IMG/VR virus record: IMGVR_UViG_3300025897_000009
Source of the DNA: a virus
Direction: 5' to 3' (one strand)
Length of the DNA: 64,000 nucleotides
Shown here: one piece after another, positions 58,034 through 64,000 of the stretch
Position numbering within the stretch: position 1 is the first letter of the stretch
Layout: every line of letters starts with the position of its first letter
Program-made: the position numbers and the translations under genes
The notes under the pieces: generated by a model
Told to the model about the DNA's origin: nothing
The model's database searches: none
Seen by the model: the letters and a program-made list of their open reading frames with translations, nothing else

Positions 58034-58110
58034 TGGCGATCCAGAAGGGACTCGAACCCTCAACTTCTGCCGTGACAGGGCAGTGCTCTAACCAATTGAA
58101 CTACTGGACC
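58034..58110 (-). tRNA. tRNA-Asp(GTC)
   Basis: Cloverleaf GGTCCAG..CTGTCAC..GTTCGAG..CTGGATCGCCA, CCA encoded. Confidence 0.95.
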
Positions 58111-58114
58111 AAAG

Positions 58115-58190
58115 TGGTGGAGTGAGAGGGACTCGAACCCTCGACCTCTTCCGTGCAAGGGAAGCATTCTCCCAACTGAACTACCACCCC
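58115..58190 (-). tRNA. tRNA-Ala(TGC)
   Basis: GGGGTGG..CTTGCAC..GTTCGAG..TCACTCCACCA, G3:U70. Confidence 0.95.
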
Positions 58191-58194
58191 ACAT

Positions 58195-58270
<76 letters not shown>

Positions 58271-59287: not shown

Positions 59288-61333
59288 CTATTTTGTAGTT
59301 GCTTCCCAGATGCCTTCCCAATCGCTTGGGTTTAATTGTTTCATCTTTTTACATCTTGATACCATTATTTTACTATAATCTTCAAGTGGTGAAAAGGTGA
59401 TTTTAGAATATATGTTGATGGATTTATCCCACTCTCCTTTTACATAAGCATCCCAAGCATCTTCTATATCCCTAACAGTATGTTTGTACACAGGAATATC
59501 AAATACAGTGTAGATGTTAACAGGTTCTTTCTTACCCTTAACAATCAATTTGTCAAGCAGAATCCAAGTTAGACGATCATCATCTATGCCTTGCTTGGTG
59601 TTTTCTGATACAACCAATTCTACACCATAACTTTTTGATTGTCCTTCTAATCTTGCTCCCAAGTTTACAGGATCTCCAAGTACTGAGTAATCAAATCTTT
59701 GATCAGAACCCATGTTTCCTACAACTGCCTCTCCTGTGTTAATCCCTATACCTATGTTGATGGGTAGTAATCCTTCTTCAGTAAGTTCTTCATTCAAATC
59801 TTTCAAATCAGTTAGCATGTAAAGTGCAGAGTACACTGCTTTATGTTCTTGGTTCTCTATATCTAAGGGTGCATTCCAAACTGCCATAATGCAATCACCC
59901 ATGTATTTGTCGATCATACCATCTTTCTGTATAATGATATCCGTCATGGGTGTAAGGAATCTATTGATCAAATGAGTAAGTCCTTGCGGATCTGTTTTGT
60001 ATTGTTCACTGATAGGAGTGAATCCTCTAATGTCACAGAACAAGTAAGTCATTTGTTTGGTCTCACCACCCAACTGTAGCATCTCAGGATTCTTTTGTAG
60101 TTGTTTAACTAACTTAGGTGATAAATATGTACTGAACTGTTTTGAAATCTGTTGTCTTAATCTAAACTGACGATAGAAGTTATTAAATGATGCTTGAGTA
60201 AATATAACCCATAACGACAAGAGAGGAAAACTTGCGTCGATCAAAACTTTATAAGAATCATAACTATAAACAGATAAGACATAACTCCCGAGAGTCAAAG
60301 AAGCAACCAAAGGTATTTGAACAACCAGAGGACTTCGATATACTATCAATACCAACAATAGACCAAGCACCAGACTGGAAATTATTTCTGCGAGCAGTAC
60401 TAGCGATGGACGACTAATTACAGTCCCATCTAGCATTGTTTGTAATATGTTTGCTTGAATCTCGTGAGGGAGTTTTGCTCCATATGGAGTATTCACTTGA
60501 GGTACGATGCCTTCTGCGGATACACCCATGATCACTGCTTTGCCTGATAGATCGGGCAGGGTATCTTTACCCAATTCATAACTGTCAAAGTGATACTTGT
60601 AATCTATGTACACTCTTCCATTGCTGTCTGTTATGATCTTATCGTAAGGTGGTATTCTGAATGCTTCTATTCCTAATTCATTTACAAAGACCTGATAAGA
60701 GGGTTCTCCTGTGAGGTTTCTTAACATCTCTAAAGCAAAAGAAGGATAGATCTTATCGTTTACATTAATTGATACAGGAACTTGTCTTACTTTACCATCT
60801 ACATCATTGGGTGCCACAGCAACACCTACACCAAAGGCATTGTCTTCGAATATTTCTAGATTGGTGACTATCCCTGGATAGTTATAAAGATAAGGTAGAG
60901 CATCTCCACCTATGGTACCTGTTCCTACATGAGGTGCCTTACTATCTAAACCTTTGATTGAAGGCATTTGTGATAGAACAACCCCACCATAAGGAAAGAC
61001 TGATGATAAGAACTCATCATCGGTTGGGTTTGATGGATTTGCGAAAGTCGTATTGATTCCTAGTACAAAACCACCAGAATTAAATGTCTCAATTACATAG
61101 TTTCCGAGAACACTTCTATTAATAGGATAACCTGTATTTTGTAATGTGGTTTCACCTATCTCTAGTAGAACTATCTGATCACTATGCACTGGTTCAGTTG
61201 ACATTATGTAATCAAACCAATTGAGTCGCAAAGTTTCTACTGGGACTGGATCAGATACTCTTAAAGCAGTCAATCCACCCAAAACTAATAAGCACATCCA
61301 CCAAGATGTTAAAATCTTAGCAAATTTGTTCAT
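59288..61333 (-). CDS. CHASE2-domain membrane adenylate cyclase (class III)
   Basis: N-terminal TM, CHASE2 (DVDGKVRQVP, YPSFALE, TPYG...HE.QA), 3 TMs, FCDIRGFT, DKYMGD, FDYSVLGDPVNLGARLE. Confidence 0.93.
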   Translation of the reverse strand: MNKFAKILTSWWMCLLVLGGLTALRVSDPVPVETLRLNWFDYIMSTEPVHSDQIVLLEIGETTLQNTGYPINRSVLGNYVIETFNSGGFVLGINTTFANPSNPTDDEFLSSVFPYGGVVLSQMPSIKGLDSKAPHVGTGTIGGDALPYLYNYPGIVTNLEIFEDNAFGVGVAVAPNDVDGKVRQVPVSINVNDKIYPSFALEMLRNLTGEPSYQVFVNELGIEAFRIPPYDKIITDSNGRVYIDYKYHFDSYELGKDTLPDLSGKAVIMGVSAEGIVPQVNTPYGAKLPHEIQANILQTMLDGTVISRPSLVLLAEIISSLVLGLLLVLIVYRSPLVVQIPLVASLTLGSYVLSVYSYDSYKVLIDASFPLLSLWVIFTQASFNNFYRQFRLRQQISKQFSTYLSPKLVKQLQKNPEMLQLGGETKQMTYLFCDIRGFTPISEQYKTDPQGLTHLINRFLTPMTDIIIQKDGMIDKYMGDCIMAVWNAPLDIENQEHKAVYSALYMLTDLKDLNEELTEEGLLPINIGIGINTGEAVVGNMGSDQRFDYSVLGDPVNLGARLEGQSKSYGVELVVSENTKQGIDDDRLTWILLDKLIVKGKKEPVNIYTVFDIPVYKHTVRDIEDAWDAYVKGEWDKSINIYSKITFSPLEDYSKIMVSRCKKMKQLNPSDWEGIWEATTK

Positions 61334-61374
61334 AAGGTTATTTATTAGATTCTAAAATTGACTATATACTTATA

Positions 61375-61450
61375 TTACGATTCTGAAACTTTTAAGTTAC
61401 GAATCTGAAACGAATTATGATACTACGAATATACAAACGATTTGACAAAT
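61375..61450. repeat. Short degenerate direct repeats (ACGAAT/ACGATT core)
   Basis: TTACGATTCTGAAAC and TTACGAATCTGAAAC plus three more cores in an AT-rich intergenic region. Confidence 0.5.
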
Positions 61451-61488
61451 TAATGAAAGTCTCCAGAATACAAAAAGTCTGGAAAATC

Positions 61489-61971
61489 TCACTCAAATAA
61501 TTTATACTTAAACTCTAGTGACACTTCATGCCTTTCTGTATTGAAAAGGTATTCATTGTGCACGACTACACTCCATTGCATCGTATTAATGAATCTAAGG
61601 TACTTGATTCTAAACTCATCATCCATGTAATCTATAGAATTTTTTATATACCAACCTGCAAAAATCTTCGTTAAGAGTACTCTCTGTCGATCAGGATTAG
61701 TTTTAAATAGAGGATTGCCCTCTTTAAGATTACAAGTAAACTCTTCAATGCATTTCTTTAATCTTTTAGTTTGATGATGATCTATTGCGGATGCAATAAG
61801 ATATTTCTTATATAGTCTCTTACTTGTTCTGGACCATGAGGTCTGATCAACTCTATAGTTGTCTATATAATTTTTCTTCACAGGCAAAGGCAAAGAGATT
61901 AATATCTCCTCAACCTGTGCGTGTAAAAAGAGTGGCAATGCTAGAACTAAGGTAAACAAAGTTCTAGTCAT
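61489..61971 (-). CDS. Secreted/outer-membrane hypothetical protein
   Basis: Signal peptide MTRTLFTLVLALPLFLHAQ; D..QT...E.NPL motif. Confidence 0.6.
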   Translation of the reverse strand: MTRTLFTLVLALPLFLHAQVEEILISLPLPVKKNYIDNYRVDQTSWSRTSKRLYKKYLIASAIDHHQTKRLKKCIEEFTCNLKEGNPLFKTNPDRQRVLLTKIFAGWYIKNSIDYMDDEFRIKYLRFINTMQWSVVVHNEYLFNTERHEVSLEFKYKLFE

Positions 61972-62125
61972 CGCAATACTCTGGGTTGTTAGAACAATAG
62001 AATTTAACTGCGTTCAGCATAAACATCATTTCGTCTTGCGTTAAATCTCCATCACCCTTGACATTCCTAGCATCCTTTTTAGGGGATGCAGGAGTTTGTC
62101 TTTGGGGTGGAGTTCTTACTTTCCC
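61964..62125 (-). other. Programmed -1 frameshift signal and 51-aa transframe extension
   Basis: G GGA AAG (62125-62119) directly before TAA, stem-loop 6 nt downstream, open -1 frame to TAG at 61964. Confidence 0.75.
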
Positions 62126-62400
62126 TCTTTGGATTCTGGTTTAGACTGTAGTTCGTCTGTCTGTTTGTCGACTTCCTCAACTACTGTTTCGACTACACCA
62201 CCAACTGCTGTTGATGCTGTGGAAACGATGCTTGCTGCATCTTCTAATACTGCTTGTCCAACACCACCGACAGTGCCGACAGTCGCATCGATAACACCTG
62301 TAGAAAGTTCTTTACCACCTTCTATAACTGCACCAACTGATGCGCATGATTGAACAAATAGTCCAAGAATCAATATGCTTATTGTATACAATTTAAACAT
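62116..62400 (-). CDS. Lipoprotein (94 aa; 145 aa if frameshifted)
   Basis: MFKLYTISILILGLFVQSC lipobox, AGGAG SD, amphipathic Gly/Val/Thr repeats. Confidence 0.8.
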   Translation of the reverse strand: MFKLYTISILILGLFVQSCASVGAVIEGGKELSTGVIDATVGTVGGVGQAVLEDAASIVSTASTAVGGVVETVVEEVDKQTDELQSKPESKEGK

Positions 62401-62490
62401 AATATCTCCTTTTGAGTTTTTCAACTCTAGTTAACTCGTAATGTGCTCTCTAAGAGAGTACAATACTCCTTTTTCCTCTTTCCTATGTAT

Positions 62491-63285
62491 TTAGTTGCCT
62501 TGTGTCACTGATATCGAACATCCACCAACTGTTTGACAATCTTGCGTAAGAGAATAAGTTTGTGCTGTGGATCCTTGTTGAAGCATGTATAAGTCTGTAT
62601 CATATGTTCCATTTATTGTAACTGTGGCAGTATGTGTCGCACTTCCCTGTTGTATCATATCAACATCATTGTAACTATTATTGATTGTTAAACTGAGTGT
62701 TTTGTCTTGGTTGCTTTCTTGTCTTGTGTACACATCGTTATAATCACCATAGATATAGGTGATGTTTGAATGTTCGTGTCCTGAGTTATTTGCTCGTTGA
62801 CTTCCCAAAAACTTATTGTTAGAACCATGAATATCTAATCGTGTAAAATGCCCACCATATTCATAATCATCAATTGCTAACAATGTGCCTGAACTTGTTA
62901 CATGATATCCTTGATAGAAGTCTACATCATTACTATTGCCTGCGATATGAAATTCAAATCTATCACTCCCACAGGATGATCCTTGATTACATGTTTGTAC
63001 AATTTTTAGATTATTGTAATCGCCATCTAAATCTCCACCCCAACTTAAACCTGAACCCCATAATGTAGTGTAACCAACATATGCACTATTGCCTTGTTGT
63101 GTTATGTCAACTACATTATTGGCACCACCCACACTAAAATCTACTTTGCTGTTGTATCCTGTTTGGTTTATGGTGAGATCAAAGTTGTTACCCACTTGAT
63201 TCATATAGATTTCATTATCTTGTGCTATTAGTAATGAAGCATAAGATGCTAAAATCATCCAACCAATAATAAGCAATTTGTCCAT
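62491..63285 (-). CDS. Curlin-like (CsgA/CsgB-type repeat) secreted protein
   Basis: Signal peptide then repeated N-x-x-x-I-x-Q-x-G units (NEIYMNQVG, DLTINQTG, VDITQQG, VDMIQQG, SISVTQGN). Confidence 0.75.
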   Translation of the reverse strand: MDKLLIIGWMILASYASLLIAQDNEIYMNQVGNNFDLTINQTGYNSKVDFSVGGANNVVDITQQGNSAYVGYTTLWGSGLSWGGDLDGDYNNLKIVQTCNQGSSCGSDRFEFHIAGNSNDVDFYQGYHVTSSGTLLAIDDYEYGGHFTRLDIHGSNNKFLGSQRANNSGHEHSNITYIYGDYNDVYTRQESNQDKTLSLTINNSYNDVDMIQQGSATHTATVTINGTYDTDLYMLQQGSTAQTYSLTQDCQTVGGCSISVTQGN

Positions 63286-64000
63286 TATCCTTCCTGTTTT
63301 ATAATTATGTTAATAGAACCACCTTCGTTCACTGTAATCTCACTGGTAGCACCTGAGTTGTTGGTGGCATTGATAGTAGCATTTGCTTCCATACTCATTT
63401 TTATCGATAACACACCACCAGCATCTCTAAAGAATGTCACTGTACCTGAACCCTGATCGATAAAAGTATTGAAGTTGGTGACTTTGTCAAATCCTGGAGC
63501 AATTGTCCCTTTGATAAAAGAACCATCTCCCGATTTGTTTTGAGAGCCACCACCTTTCTGTCTTTGTATTTCAATATTTTCTAATACTTCTAATACATCT
63601 TGAAGTAAATCAACATCAAGTAAGTCAATATCTAATTCAGTAAACTCTAAACTGTCTTCTGTTAATTCTGGATCTTCTTCTAATAAGTTTTCTTCTAGTA
63701 GATCTATATCTAATATTCCACCATCTGAAGAATCACTCGAAGACATCTCTTCTTGCTGTTTTGTTATTTCTTTTGGTGGCGAAACTATAAACATGTTATC
63801 AATTAGATTCATGTCTATATCTAAAGTTGTTGGTGGAGTTGGACTCGTTTCTATATTCGGAGTCATTGTTGCTTGATATGCCTCGTTAAGAGTCACACTA
63901 CCACCAGCAGTCGTCACCAATATCTCACCAGATGCGTTTCCGTTTTCATCTGGTAATAGTATGATGAGAGATCTTCCTATCTCATCTACTGTTGTTGTAA
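63285..64000 (-). CDS. FecR-domain protein (5' part outside the window)
   Basis: Frame open to the window edge: TTTVDEIGRSLIILLPD..GEILVTTAGGSVTLN.AYQAT, acidic linker, C-terminal I.I.Q. Confidence 0.65.
   Translation of the reverse strand, partial: TTTVDEIGRSLIILLPDENGNASGEILVTTAGGSVTLNEAYQATMTPNIETSPTPPTTLDIDMNLIDNMFIVSPPKEITKQQEEMSSSDSSDGGILDIDLLEENLLEEDPELTEDSLEFTELDIDLLDVDLLQDVLEVLENIEIQRQKGGGSQNKSGDGSFIKGTIAPGFDKVTNFNTFIDQGSGTVTFFRDAGGVLSIKMSMEANATINATNNSGATSEITVNEGGSINIIIKQEG

What the first reader, a model, noticed from the sequence alone, without database searches (positions are those of the whole stretch)
61964..62400. Hidden programmed -1 ribosomal frameshift gives two forms of a phage lipoprotein in the curli/cyclase module
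Seen: the lipoprotein ORF ends GAG GGA AAG TAA. The heptamer G GGA AAG (62125-62119) is in the correct X XXY YYZ phase. Six nt later (TAAGAA) an extended stem-loop starts: CTCCACCC with GGGTGATGGAG, GACA with TGTC, CCTGCATCC with GGATGCTAGG (about 62112-62047). The -1 frame is open for 51 codons (VRTPPQRQTPASPKKDARNVKGDGDLTQDEMMFMLNAVKFYCSNNPEYCDD*), has no start codon for 30 codons, fills the gap exactly and its TAG overlaps the next ATG (ATGACTAG). Known: GGGAAAG is the lambda gpG/gpGT slippery site, and a 5-9 nt spacer plus structure is the standard stimulator. Inference: a fixed ratio of 94-aa and 145-aa lipoproteins is made, the long form adding a Pro-rich linker and a C-x6-C helical tip, and downstream translation may be coupled to the shift. 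Phage frameshifts are mostly known in tail chaperone and capsid/tail genes; I know of none in a curli-associated lipoprotein.
Basis: partly seen in the sequence, partly recalled or inferred. Interest (0 to 1): 0.88.

Follow-up and report, generated by a model that had tools for sequence, protein, structure and literature searches.

The report
Frameshift-extended lipoprotein of marine phages
A small lipoprotein gene of a marine T4-like (pelagimyophage-type) phage ends in a conserved ribosome slip site plus RNA hairpin, so it very probably makes a 94-residue protein and a 145-residue one with an extra two-cysteine tail; the mechanism is classical, but I found no published description of it in this kind of gene.

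Summary
These are the in-phase G GGA AAG (62125-62119) abutting the TAA, a 6-nt spacer, a 66-nt hairpin (-29.9 kcal/mol, z = -6), a 51-codon -1 ORF with no start codon before its conserved part, and the ATGACTAG overlap with the next gene.

Comparative evidence supports a programmed -1 frameshift.
- Of 121 distinct homologous junctions from marine viral and metagenomic contigs, 61 have an in-phase A AAA AAG or G GGA AAG 0-1 codon before the stop. All 61 have a -1 extension with a C-x6-C pair.
- 56 junctions have neither heptamer nor extension.
- The extension is under purifying selection (dN/dS 0.06-0.5), and 29 of 33 distinct versions have no usable start codon.
- A hairpin starts about 6 nt after the heptamer in nearly all clades and shows covariation.

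Caveats: two lineages deviate (G GAA AAG with a TAATG overlap; one allele with the extension in the +1 frame). The heptamer/extension association rests on only 2-5 independent evolutionary events. No protein or RNA data exist, and the function is unknown.

This scan had already found the same family's frameshift in four other genomes. I found no published description. Verdict: a new member of a known kind.

The parts
62406..62411 (-). Shine-Dalgarno-like AAGGAG, 5 nt upstream of the lipoprotein ATG
   Evidence: Read directly from the sequence
62116..62400 (-). 0-frame lipoprotein ORF (94 aa plus TAA): signal peptide, invariant lipobox Cys19, Gly/Ala/Val-rich helical body, conserved DKQTDELQ near the C-terminus
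   Evidence: 153 homologs at E<=1e-3, of which the 120 listed are 83-137 aa and mostly 88-97 aa. Cys19 is invariant in alignment A3. The AF2 model is all-helical but low confidence, pLDDT 54. No Pfam or informative PHROG family.
62119..62125 (-). Slippery heptamer G GGA AAG in X XXY YYZ phase, immediately followed by the 0-frame TAA (62118-62116)
   Evidence: An in-phase GGGAAAG or AAAAAAG occurs 0-1 codon before the stop in 61 of 121 distinct homolog junctions, always together with a -1 extension.
62113..62118 (-). 6-nt spacer TAAGAA (includes the 0-frame stop)
   Evidence: The core stem starts 6 nt after the heptamer in most of 46 distinct homolog regions.
62047..62112 (-). Extended hairpin, the putative frameshift stimulator
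   Evidence: MFE -29.9 kcal/mol, z = -5.99. Its base (CTCC..ACC / GGTGATGGAG) is kept in the closest clade, L081/L082. Equivalent hairpins of different sequence occur in other clades, with covariation. It is not terminator-like and has no Rfam match.
61964..62119 (-). -1 frame extension: 51 codons plus TAG, giving a 145-aa trans-frame product with junction ...ESKEGK|VRTPPQR
   Evidence: dN/dS is 0.06-0.5 and codon-position entropy is 0.95/0.62/1.30 in this frame across homologs.
61967..62038 (-). Conserved C-terminal module of the extension: amphipathic helix followed by Y-C-S-N-N-P-E-Y-C (C-x6-C)
   Evidence: Y41, C42, P46 and C49 are invariant in alignment A2 and are encoded by mixed synonymous codons. 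In the AF2 model the helix spans residues 28-44 with pLDDT above 90.
61489..61971 (-). Next gene (160-aa exported protein) whose ATG overlaps the extension's TAG (ATGACTAG); possibly translationally coupled to frameshifted ribosomes
   Evidence: The overlap is kept in L081/L082. Among the L001-L080 viral loci this gene has no homolog outside the window.

Best explanation
The lipoprotein gene is decoded in two ways. Most ribosomes read GAG GGA AAG and terminate at the adjacent TAA, giving a 94-aa precursor of a small, helical lipoprotein. A fraction pause over the hairpin that starts 6 nt downstream. Their P-site tRNA-Gly and A-site tRNA-Lys slip back one base (GGA AAG to GGG AAA), and these ribosomes continue in the -1 frame for 51 codons. 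This gives a 145-aa form with the same signal peptide and lipid anchor plus a flexible Pro/Lys-rich linker and a short helix ending in a C-x6-C loop. Once exported, that loop could form a disulfide. The result is two nested isoforms from one gene, as with lambda G/GT or dnaX tau/gamma, here in an envelope protein of a pelagimyophage-type T4-like phage. Shown computationally: the cassette anatomy, its conservation, selection on the -1 frame, the lack of an independent start, and hairpin covariation. Inferred only: that slippage actually happens, its efficiency, lipidation, the disulfide, and the biological role. My guess at the role is an adaptor isoform in the phage's curlin-like/FecR/CHASE2-cyclase envelope module.
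For: (1) Anatomy: in-phase G GGA AAG abutting the stop, a 6-nt spacer, and a hairpin with z = -6. G_GGA_AAG and A_AAA_AAG are among the most shift-prone heptamers in E. coli (review PMC5009743, read).
(2) Conservation: among 121 distinct junctions from 181 loci, 60 have an in-phase XXXAAAG and a -1 extension with [YFWH]C-x3-P-x2-C. One more (L137) has heptamer, hairpin and a divergent C-x6-C extension. 56 have neither, and no heptamer occurs without an extension.
(3) The site changes sequence while keeping slipperiness and phase: GA|G GGA AAG|TAA or TAG, CC|A AAA AAG|GAC TAA, GA|A AAA AAG|TAG, and others.
(4) Protein-level selection in the -1 frame: dN/dS 0.06-0.5 in 16 pairs, third-position entropy highest, and invariant Y/C/P/C encoded by synonymous codons (C2: TGC 18, TGT 15; P: CCT 15, CCA 17).
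(5) No independent start: 29 of 33 distinct extensions have no ATG/GTG/TTG upstream of the conserved helix, and L010/L012 have none at all.
(6) Hairpin: it starts about 6 nt after the heptamer in most clades, built from different sequences. It is more stable than background windows in all 16 representatives (Fisher p 4e-10). In the alignable clade 92.7% of cells pair, against 83% in shuffles and at most 57% when slid; 3 pairs change on both sides; the covariation score is 0.313 against 0.149, reached by 0 of 500 shuffles.
(7) Where the extension is absent, a terminator or an unrelated gene in a variable frame follows and the heptamer is gone. For example, sister pair L010 has A AAA AAG and L001 has T AAA CAG.
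(8) An exhaustive profile search of 1.84 billion proteins found only 11 hits to the extension. Most are short (35-83 aa): contig-edge fragments or short ORF calls in the extension's frame. None is a credible in-frame fusion, so the domain is essentially reachable only by recoding.
(9) The window junction is identical in six independent assemblies.
Against: The heptamer/extension association, though perfect in counts, reflects only 2 well-supported and at most 5 independent changes on the family tree, so the sign test has no power. Two lineages do not fit simply. L024/L160 have a degenerate G GAA AAG and an ATG overlapping the stop (TAATG), so there the tail could be made as a free 37-aa peptide. 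One allele, seen in two samples (L098/L099), has the heptamer destroyed (A AAG AAG) and the extension in the +1 frame with an upstream ATG, while keeping the hairpin. The hairpin in L010 is weak (z +0.5). Frameshift propensity of these heptamers is documented for E. coli, not for the presumed SAR11-type host.
Confidence: 0.87

Rival explanations
1. The extension is a separate small gene, translated by its own initiation or by termination-reinitiation after the lipoprotein stop, and is not fused to the lipoprotein.
For: L024/L160 carry an ATG overlapping the stop (TAATG), and a gene caller predicts a 37-aa ORF there (P0139). L098/L099 have an ATG-initiated 79-aa ORF in another frame. Many clades have a Met about 9 residues before the first Cys.
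Against: 29 of 33 distinct extensions lack any ATG/GTG/TTG before the conserved helix, and two have none in the whole -1 ORF. The Met at -9 is not conserved; it is Ile or Leu in L010 and L020. The frame is always -1, always open back to the heptamer, and the heptamer is always in phase, none of which a separate gene requires. In contrast, truly separate downstream genes in extension-less homologs sit in varying frames. A related module occurs three times in a protein with a signal peptide (P0145), which suggests it works outside the cytoplasm, and a free peptide has no export signal.
Confidence: 0.05
2. The two frames are joined at the RNA level by transcriptional slippage of RNA polymerase on the A-run rather than by ribosomal slippage.
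For: Many homologs have runs of 6-7 A at the site.
Against: The window and at least 13 other distinct junctions use G GGA AAG, which has only three A and three G, too short for polymerase stuttering. That process is established for runs of about 8-9 or more (PMC5009743). The motif is always in the ribosomal X XXY YYZ phase. It is followed at 6 nt by a conserved hairpin, which is a ribosome-level stimulator.
Confidence: 0.04
3. The -1 ORF is a decaying remnant of an ancestral longer gene broken by a frameshift mutation, or a chance open frame shaped only by the RNA hairpin.
For: About half of the family lacks the extension, so it is dispensable. The L098/L099 allele may be such a decayed copy.
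Against: dN/dS is well below 1 across clades that differ at most synonymous sites. The Cys/Pro residues are invariant with synonymous codon turnover. The heptamer is kept in phase through changes of its own sequence. The conserved part lies downstream of the hairpin, so RNA structure cannot explain it.
Confidence: 0.03

Closest known systems
Phage lambda G/GT tail assembly chaperone -1 frameshift (G GGA AAG) and its analogues in tailed phages
   Same: Identical heptamer in the window. The slip occurs at the very end of the short ORF. Two nested products share an N-terminal part, and the arrangement is conserved across relatives although gene callers miss it.
   Different: The gene is not a tail chaperone. 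It carries a lipoprotein signal peptide, lies in an envelope/signalling gene block rather than between tail tube and tape measure, and has no sequence similarity to G or T. A clear downstream hairpin is present and conserved here.
E. coli dnaX tau/gamma and IS3/IS911-type cassettes (A AAA AAG plus downstream stem-loop)
   Same: Most homologs use A AAA AAG with a stem-loop 6 nt downstream, the same core layout (PMC5009743 read).
   Different: In dnaX the shift truncates the protein, whereas here it extends it. No conserved upstream Shine-Dalgarno-like stimulator was seen by eye. The 0-frame stop lies 0-1 codon after the site.
3'-terminal frameshifts that add C-terminal extensions to phage capsid or tail proteins (for example T7 10A/10B, Lactobacillus phage A2 major head protein)
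   Same: The recoding site lies at the last codons of the gene and adds a short C-terminal module to a fraction of the molecules.
   Different: Those are virion proteins. This one is a predicted exported lipoprotein, and nothing tested here links it to the virion.
Phage o-spanins (Rz1-type small outer-membrane lipoproteins with functional cysteines)
   Same: A small phage lipoprotein, a Pro-rich segment and periplasmic cysteines; unusual gene architecture is typical of spanins.
   Different: No similarity to any spanin PHROG. No adjacent i-spanin-like gene was recognised. The family sits next to curlin-like and CHASE2-cyclase genes instead. This is resemblance only, recalled from general knowledge.

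Membership tests
Programmed -1 ribosomal frameshift cassette (heptamer plus 3' structure) | X XXY YYZ heptamer in the 0-frame phase, of a type known to be shift-prone in bacteria | tested here: met
   G GGA AAG at 62125-62119. In-phase GGGAAAG or AAAAAAG in 61 of 121 distinct homolog junctions. Shiftiness documented in PMC5009743.
Programmed -1 ribosomal frameshift cassette (heptamer plus 3' structure) | Stable RNA structure starting 5-9 nt downstream, conserved with covariation | tested here: met
   Hairpin 62112-62047, z = -6. Core stem at 6 nt in most clades. Covariation score 0.313 against 0.149 in shuffles, reached by 0 of 500. Only 10 distinct sequences entered the formal test, and L010 is weak.
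Programmed -1 ribosomal frameshift cassette (heptamer plus 3' structure) | -1 ORF without its own start, under purifying selection, conserved in relatives | tested here: met
   Exceptions: L024/L160 (an ATG at the junction) and L098/L099 (+1 frame).
Programmed -1 ribosomal frameshift cassette (heptamer plus 3' structure) | Two protein products demonstrated, dependent on the heptamer | not testable with these tools
Lambda G/GT-type tail assembly chaperones | Position between major tail and tape measure genes, and homology to G/T families | tested here: not met
   No Pfam hit. The only PHROG hits are chance-level (E 0.02-0.07) and match a tape measure and an unknown family. The neighbours are a curlin-like gene, an exported protein and a CHASE2 cyclase.
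Bacterial-type lipoprotein (signal peptidase II substrate) | N-terminal hydrophobic signal followed by a lipobox with invariant Cys | tested here: inconclusive
   Cys19 is invariant after a hydrophobic stretch in 18 diverse homologs, but the -2 position (Q or P) is atypical and no dedicated predictor was available.
Phage spanins (o-spanin) | Similarity to spanin families and/or an adjacent or embedded i-spanin partner | tested here: not met
   No spanin PHROG hit. Flanking genes are unrelated to spanins.

The most novel reading that the evidence does not exclude
The frameshift sets the stoichiometry of a phage-encoded envelope signalling device. The rare long isoform would use its disulfide-looped helix to dock a periplasmic partner, either the CHASE2 sensor domain of the adjacent adenylate cyclase or the curlin-like or 160-aa exported proteins. 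In the window's clade the next gene would be translated only by ribosomes that have frameshifted (ATGACTAG coupling), so that partner and long isoform are made in matched amounts.
Probability: 0.12. Interest if true: 0.75.

Novelty: new member of a known kind. Interest (0 to 1): 0.6.

Why it matters
Programmed frameshifts in phages are annotated almost only in tail chaperone and some capsid or tail genes. In the SEA-PHAGES set used to train PRFect, 2397 of 2476 joined genes are tail assembly chaperones (PMC10885494). This is a well-supported case in an exported, non-structural-looking protein. It is widespread in abundant marine T4-like phages: at least 387 metagenomic and 122 viral-contig stretches encode the family. 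It is invisible to gene callers, since the extension domain is almost absent from a library of 1.84 billion predicted proteins. It adds a hidden domain to the poorly understood curli-like cluster of pelagimyophages, whose function the literature calls unclear (PMC7029224). It also offers a natural series of heptamer and hairpin variants for studying frameshift stimulators in AT-rich, streamlined hosts.

Tried and rejected
- **In-frame fused homologs.** None appeared among the 120 best lipoprotein hits; the longer ones are N-terminal over-calls. None appeared among longer proteins searched with the extension profile. The one apparent fusion (P0140) lies on a pilon-polished long-read contig whose lipoprotein gene is itself riddled with indels, so I discarded it.
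- **Cultured phages.** blastn and tblastn against GenBank phages found nothing; the window's own or nearest record may be masked. The nearest held virus record, G001, is a 43-kb fragment without the locus.
- **Function by homology.** No informative match in Pfam, PHROGs or the ESM Atlas. There is a weak DUF6726 lead at score 0.87, below the level worth trusting.
- **Structure.** The AF2 model of the lipoprotein was too poor (pLDDT 54) for a fold search.
- **Hairpin as a terminator or known RNA.** No T-tract, no terminator-like site and no Rfam family; the only hits, at E 0.07 and 0.7, are far below gathering scores.
- **Extension-first locus search.** It confirmed only 4 loci because confirmation uses the first sequence only. 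The one new locus (L089) fits the model.
- **Independent-contrast test.** The heptamer-against-extension test has too few independent changes to be significant.
- **Context of P0145.** The genomic context of the tandem-module protein was uninformative.
- **Complex prediction.** I did not run one, because I do not claim a specific binding partner.

Full report
**Observation**

On the minus strand, ORF 62400..62116 encodes a 94-aa protein. It has a hydrophobic N-terminus and a Cys at position 19, and it ends GAG GGA AAG TAA. G GGA AAG (62125-62119) is in X XXY YYZ phase.

After the spacer TAAGAA, a 66-nt hairpin (62112-62047) folds at -29.9 kcal/mol. Dinucleotide shuffles average -14.3, giving z = -5.99, and none of 200 is as stable. 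The -1 frame runs 51 codons to TAG 61966-61964, inside ATGACTAG, where the next ORF (61971..61489) starts. Its only start-type codons lie inside the conserved helix.

In the whole window there are ten in-phase shifty heptamers in ORFs of at least 80 aa. Only this one abuts its stop and opens a long -1 frame (51 codons against 2-15). Six independent metagenome assemblies, with contigs up to 148 kb, carry the identical junction, so it is not an assembly indel.

**Relatives**

The lipoprotein family is large and found only in viral or marine metagenomic data. There are 122 viral-contig matches, at least 387 metagenome matches and 153 protein clusters. There is no Pfam or PHROG assignment.

I classified 181 loci into 121 distinct junctions.
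- 60 have an in-phase XXXAAAG 0-1 codon before the stop and a -1 frame open to a [YFWH]C-x3-P-x2-C motif.
- L137 has G GGA AAG, a hairpin and a 43-codon -1 ORF with a divergent C-x6-C.
- 56 have neither heptamer nor extension. In those, a terminator or an unrelated gene in a variable frame follows.
- No junction has a heptamer without an extension.

The site varies in sequence but keeps its slipperiness and phase. Variants include GAG GGA AAG TAA or TAG, CCA AAA AAG GAC TAA and GAA AAA AAG TAG. More divergent lipoproteins of 107-112 aa (L093-L096) show the same layout, and there gene callers had invented GTG starts for the extension.

**Is the -1 frame translated?**

The extension aligns across clades as a variable linker, an amphipathic helix and an invariant Y-C...P..C. 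Several lines point to translation as a fusion.
- Pairwise dN/dS in that frame is 0.06-0.5, and codon-position entropy is 0.95/0.62/1.30.
- The invariant residues use mixed synonymous codons.
- 29 of 33 distinct versions have no ATG/GTG/TTG upstream of the helix, and two have none at all.
- A profile of the extension, searched against 1.84 billion representative proteins, found 11 hits. Most are short (35-83 aa): contig-edge fragments that read through the 'KK' slip site, or short ORF calls in the extension's frame.
- One of those hits (P0145) is a signal-peptide protein with three tandem [F/Y]C-x2-NP-x2-CE units. This suggests the module acts outside the cytoplasm and so needs the lipoprotein's export signal.
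- AlphaFold2 models the extension as a disordered linker plus a confident helix (residues 28-44, pLDDT above 90).

**The stimulator**

In nearly every clade a GC-rich stem starts about 6 nt after the heptamer, built from different sequences: GCCTTTT.../...AAGGC, GCCATTC/GAATGGC, CTTCATC/GATGAAG, CCCCTG/CAGGGG, and in the window CTCCACCC/GGGTG-ATGGAG.

The 48 nt after the heptamer are more stable than background windows of the same loci in all 16 representatives (Fisher p about 4e-10, though the lineages are not fully independent).

In the alignable A AAA AAG GAC TAA clade, 92.7% of cells pair. This compares with 83% in shuffles and at most 57% when partners are slid. Three pairs show double-sided changes, and the covariation score is 0.313 against 0.149, reached by 0 of 500 shuffles.

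The linker peptide encoded over the hairpin is not conserved between clades, so the constraint there is at the RNA level. The hairpin has no T-tract and no Rfam match.

**Mechanism**

The most likely reading is classical tandem -1 slippage. With GGA in the P site and AAG in the A site, the tRNAs re-pair to GGG and AAA while the ribosome is held by the hairpin. Decoding then resumes at GUA, giving ...E-G-K-V-R-T-P-P... and a 145-aa product. Non-shifted ribosomes terminate at the adjacent TAA and give the 94-aa form.

Both heptamer types are among the most shift-prone in E. coli (PMC5009743). Transcriptional slippage is unlikely because G GGA AAG has no long homopolymer and the phase and hairpin are ribosome-level features.

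**Caveats**

On a tree of the lipoprotein body, built with the tail excluded, the extension/heptamer label needs only 3-5 changes, 2 of them on well-supported branches. The perfect co-occurrence therefore reflects few independent events and the sign test has no power.

Two lineages deviate.
- L024/L160 have G GAA AAG and an ATG overlapping the stop (TAATG), which might allow a free 37-aa peptide.
- One allele found in two samples (L098/L099, identical through the cassette) has A AAG AAG and the extension in the +1 frame with an upstream ATG, yet keeps the hairpin. It may be a recently broken copy, or it may use another route. A -2 shift is formally possible, but that is speculation.

No expression data could be obtained.

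**Context and function**

The genome is a T4-like marine myophage according to earlier notes of this scan, with contigs of about 148 kb. Its curli-type cluster matches what has been described for pelagimyophages. That paper mentions no lipoprotein, cyclase or frameshift (PMC7029224).

In 28 of 81 loci (the 80 viral loci plus the window) at least one of the window's neighbour genes (curlin-like gene, CHASE2 adenylate cyclase or the upstream 237-aa ORF) has a homolog nearby. In 23 of the 80 viral loci the lipoprotein lies upstream of a CHASE2 cyclase, usually after a curlin-like gene. The large L044-L080 clade, however, has the cassette with none of these neighbours within the roughly 4 kb held on either side, so the frameshift belongs to the gene and not to the module.

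The ATGACTAG overlap with the 160-aa exported protein is kept only in the window's clade. Function is unknown. I favour an envelope lipoprotein with a minor adaptor isoform, which is inference only.

**Novelty**

Full-text searches found no report of a frameshift in a phage lipoprotein or in this cluster. Known phage cases are dominated by tail chaperones (PMC10885494).

Follow-up agents of this scan had already reached the same conclusion for the same family in four other genomes. I re-tested the claim independently here and add three things: the exceptions, the small number of independent events, and the tandem-module protein. The mechanism is textbook, so this is a new member of a known kind.

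Noticed in passing
L098:402-641 and L099:188-427: One allele of the family has the Cys-motif extension in the +1 frame (79-aa ORF with an ATG inside the lipoprotein gene). The heptamer is destroyed (GAA GAA AAG AAG TAA) but the downstream hairpin is kept. The two contigs are identical through the cassette and diverge right after it.
   Followed up: partly
L024:313-432 and L160 (junction near 819): This lineage has a degenerate G GAA AAG and an ATG overlapping the stop (TAATG), so the tail might be made as a free 37-aa peptide. It could be an intermediate between frameshifting and reinitiation.
   Followed up: partly
P0145 (L181:3001-3435): A 144-aa protein with a signal peptide and three tandem [F/Y]C-x2-NP-x2-CE units, related to the extension's C-terminal module (E 3e-4). 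Its genomic context is uninformative.
   Followed up: partly
L137 (junction near 416): This locus has G GGA AAG TAA, a hairpin (CCTTCTT...AAGAAGG) and a 43-codon -1 ORF. Its tail has C-x6-C but lacks the Y-C...P motif, so it is a second type of extension.
   Followed up: partly
window 58034-58270 (-): A cluster of three phage tRNA genes (Asp-GTC, Ala-TGC, Thr-TGT). No tRNA-Lys or tRNA-Gly is encoded in the window.
   Followed up: no
window 59288-63998 (-) and loci L005-L042, L058: The gene order of a 237-aa ORF homolog, a curlin-like repeat protein, the lipoprotein and a CHASE2 class III cyclase recurs in many marine T4-like contigs. The pelagimyophage curli paper does not mention the cyclase or the FecR-domain gene.
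   Followed up: partly
window 62398-62486 (-): A weak preQ1-II riboswitch-like match lies in the lipoprotein's 5' leader (25 bits against a gathering score of 47, E 0.07). It is most likely chance.
   Followed up: no
L093:1201-1326, L095:1169-1318: Public gene calls give the extension spurious GTG starts (41- and 49-aa 'genes'). This shows how the frameshifted part is mis-annotated.
   Followed up: yes
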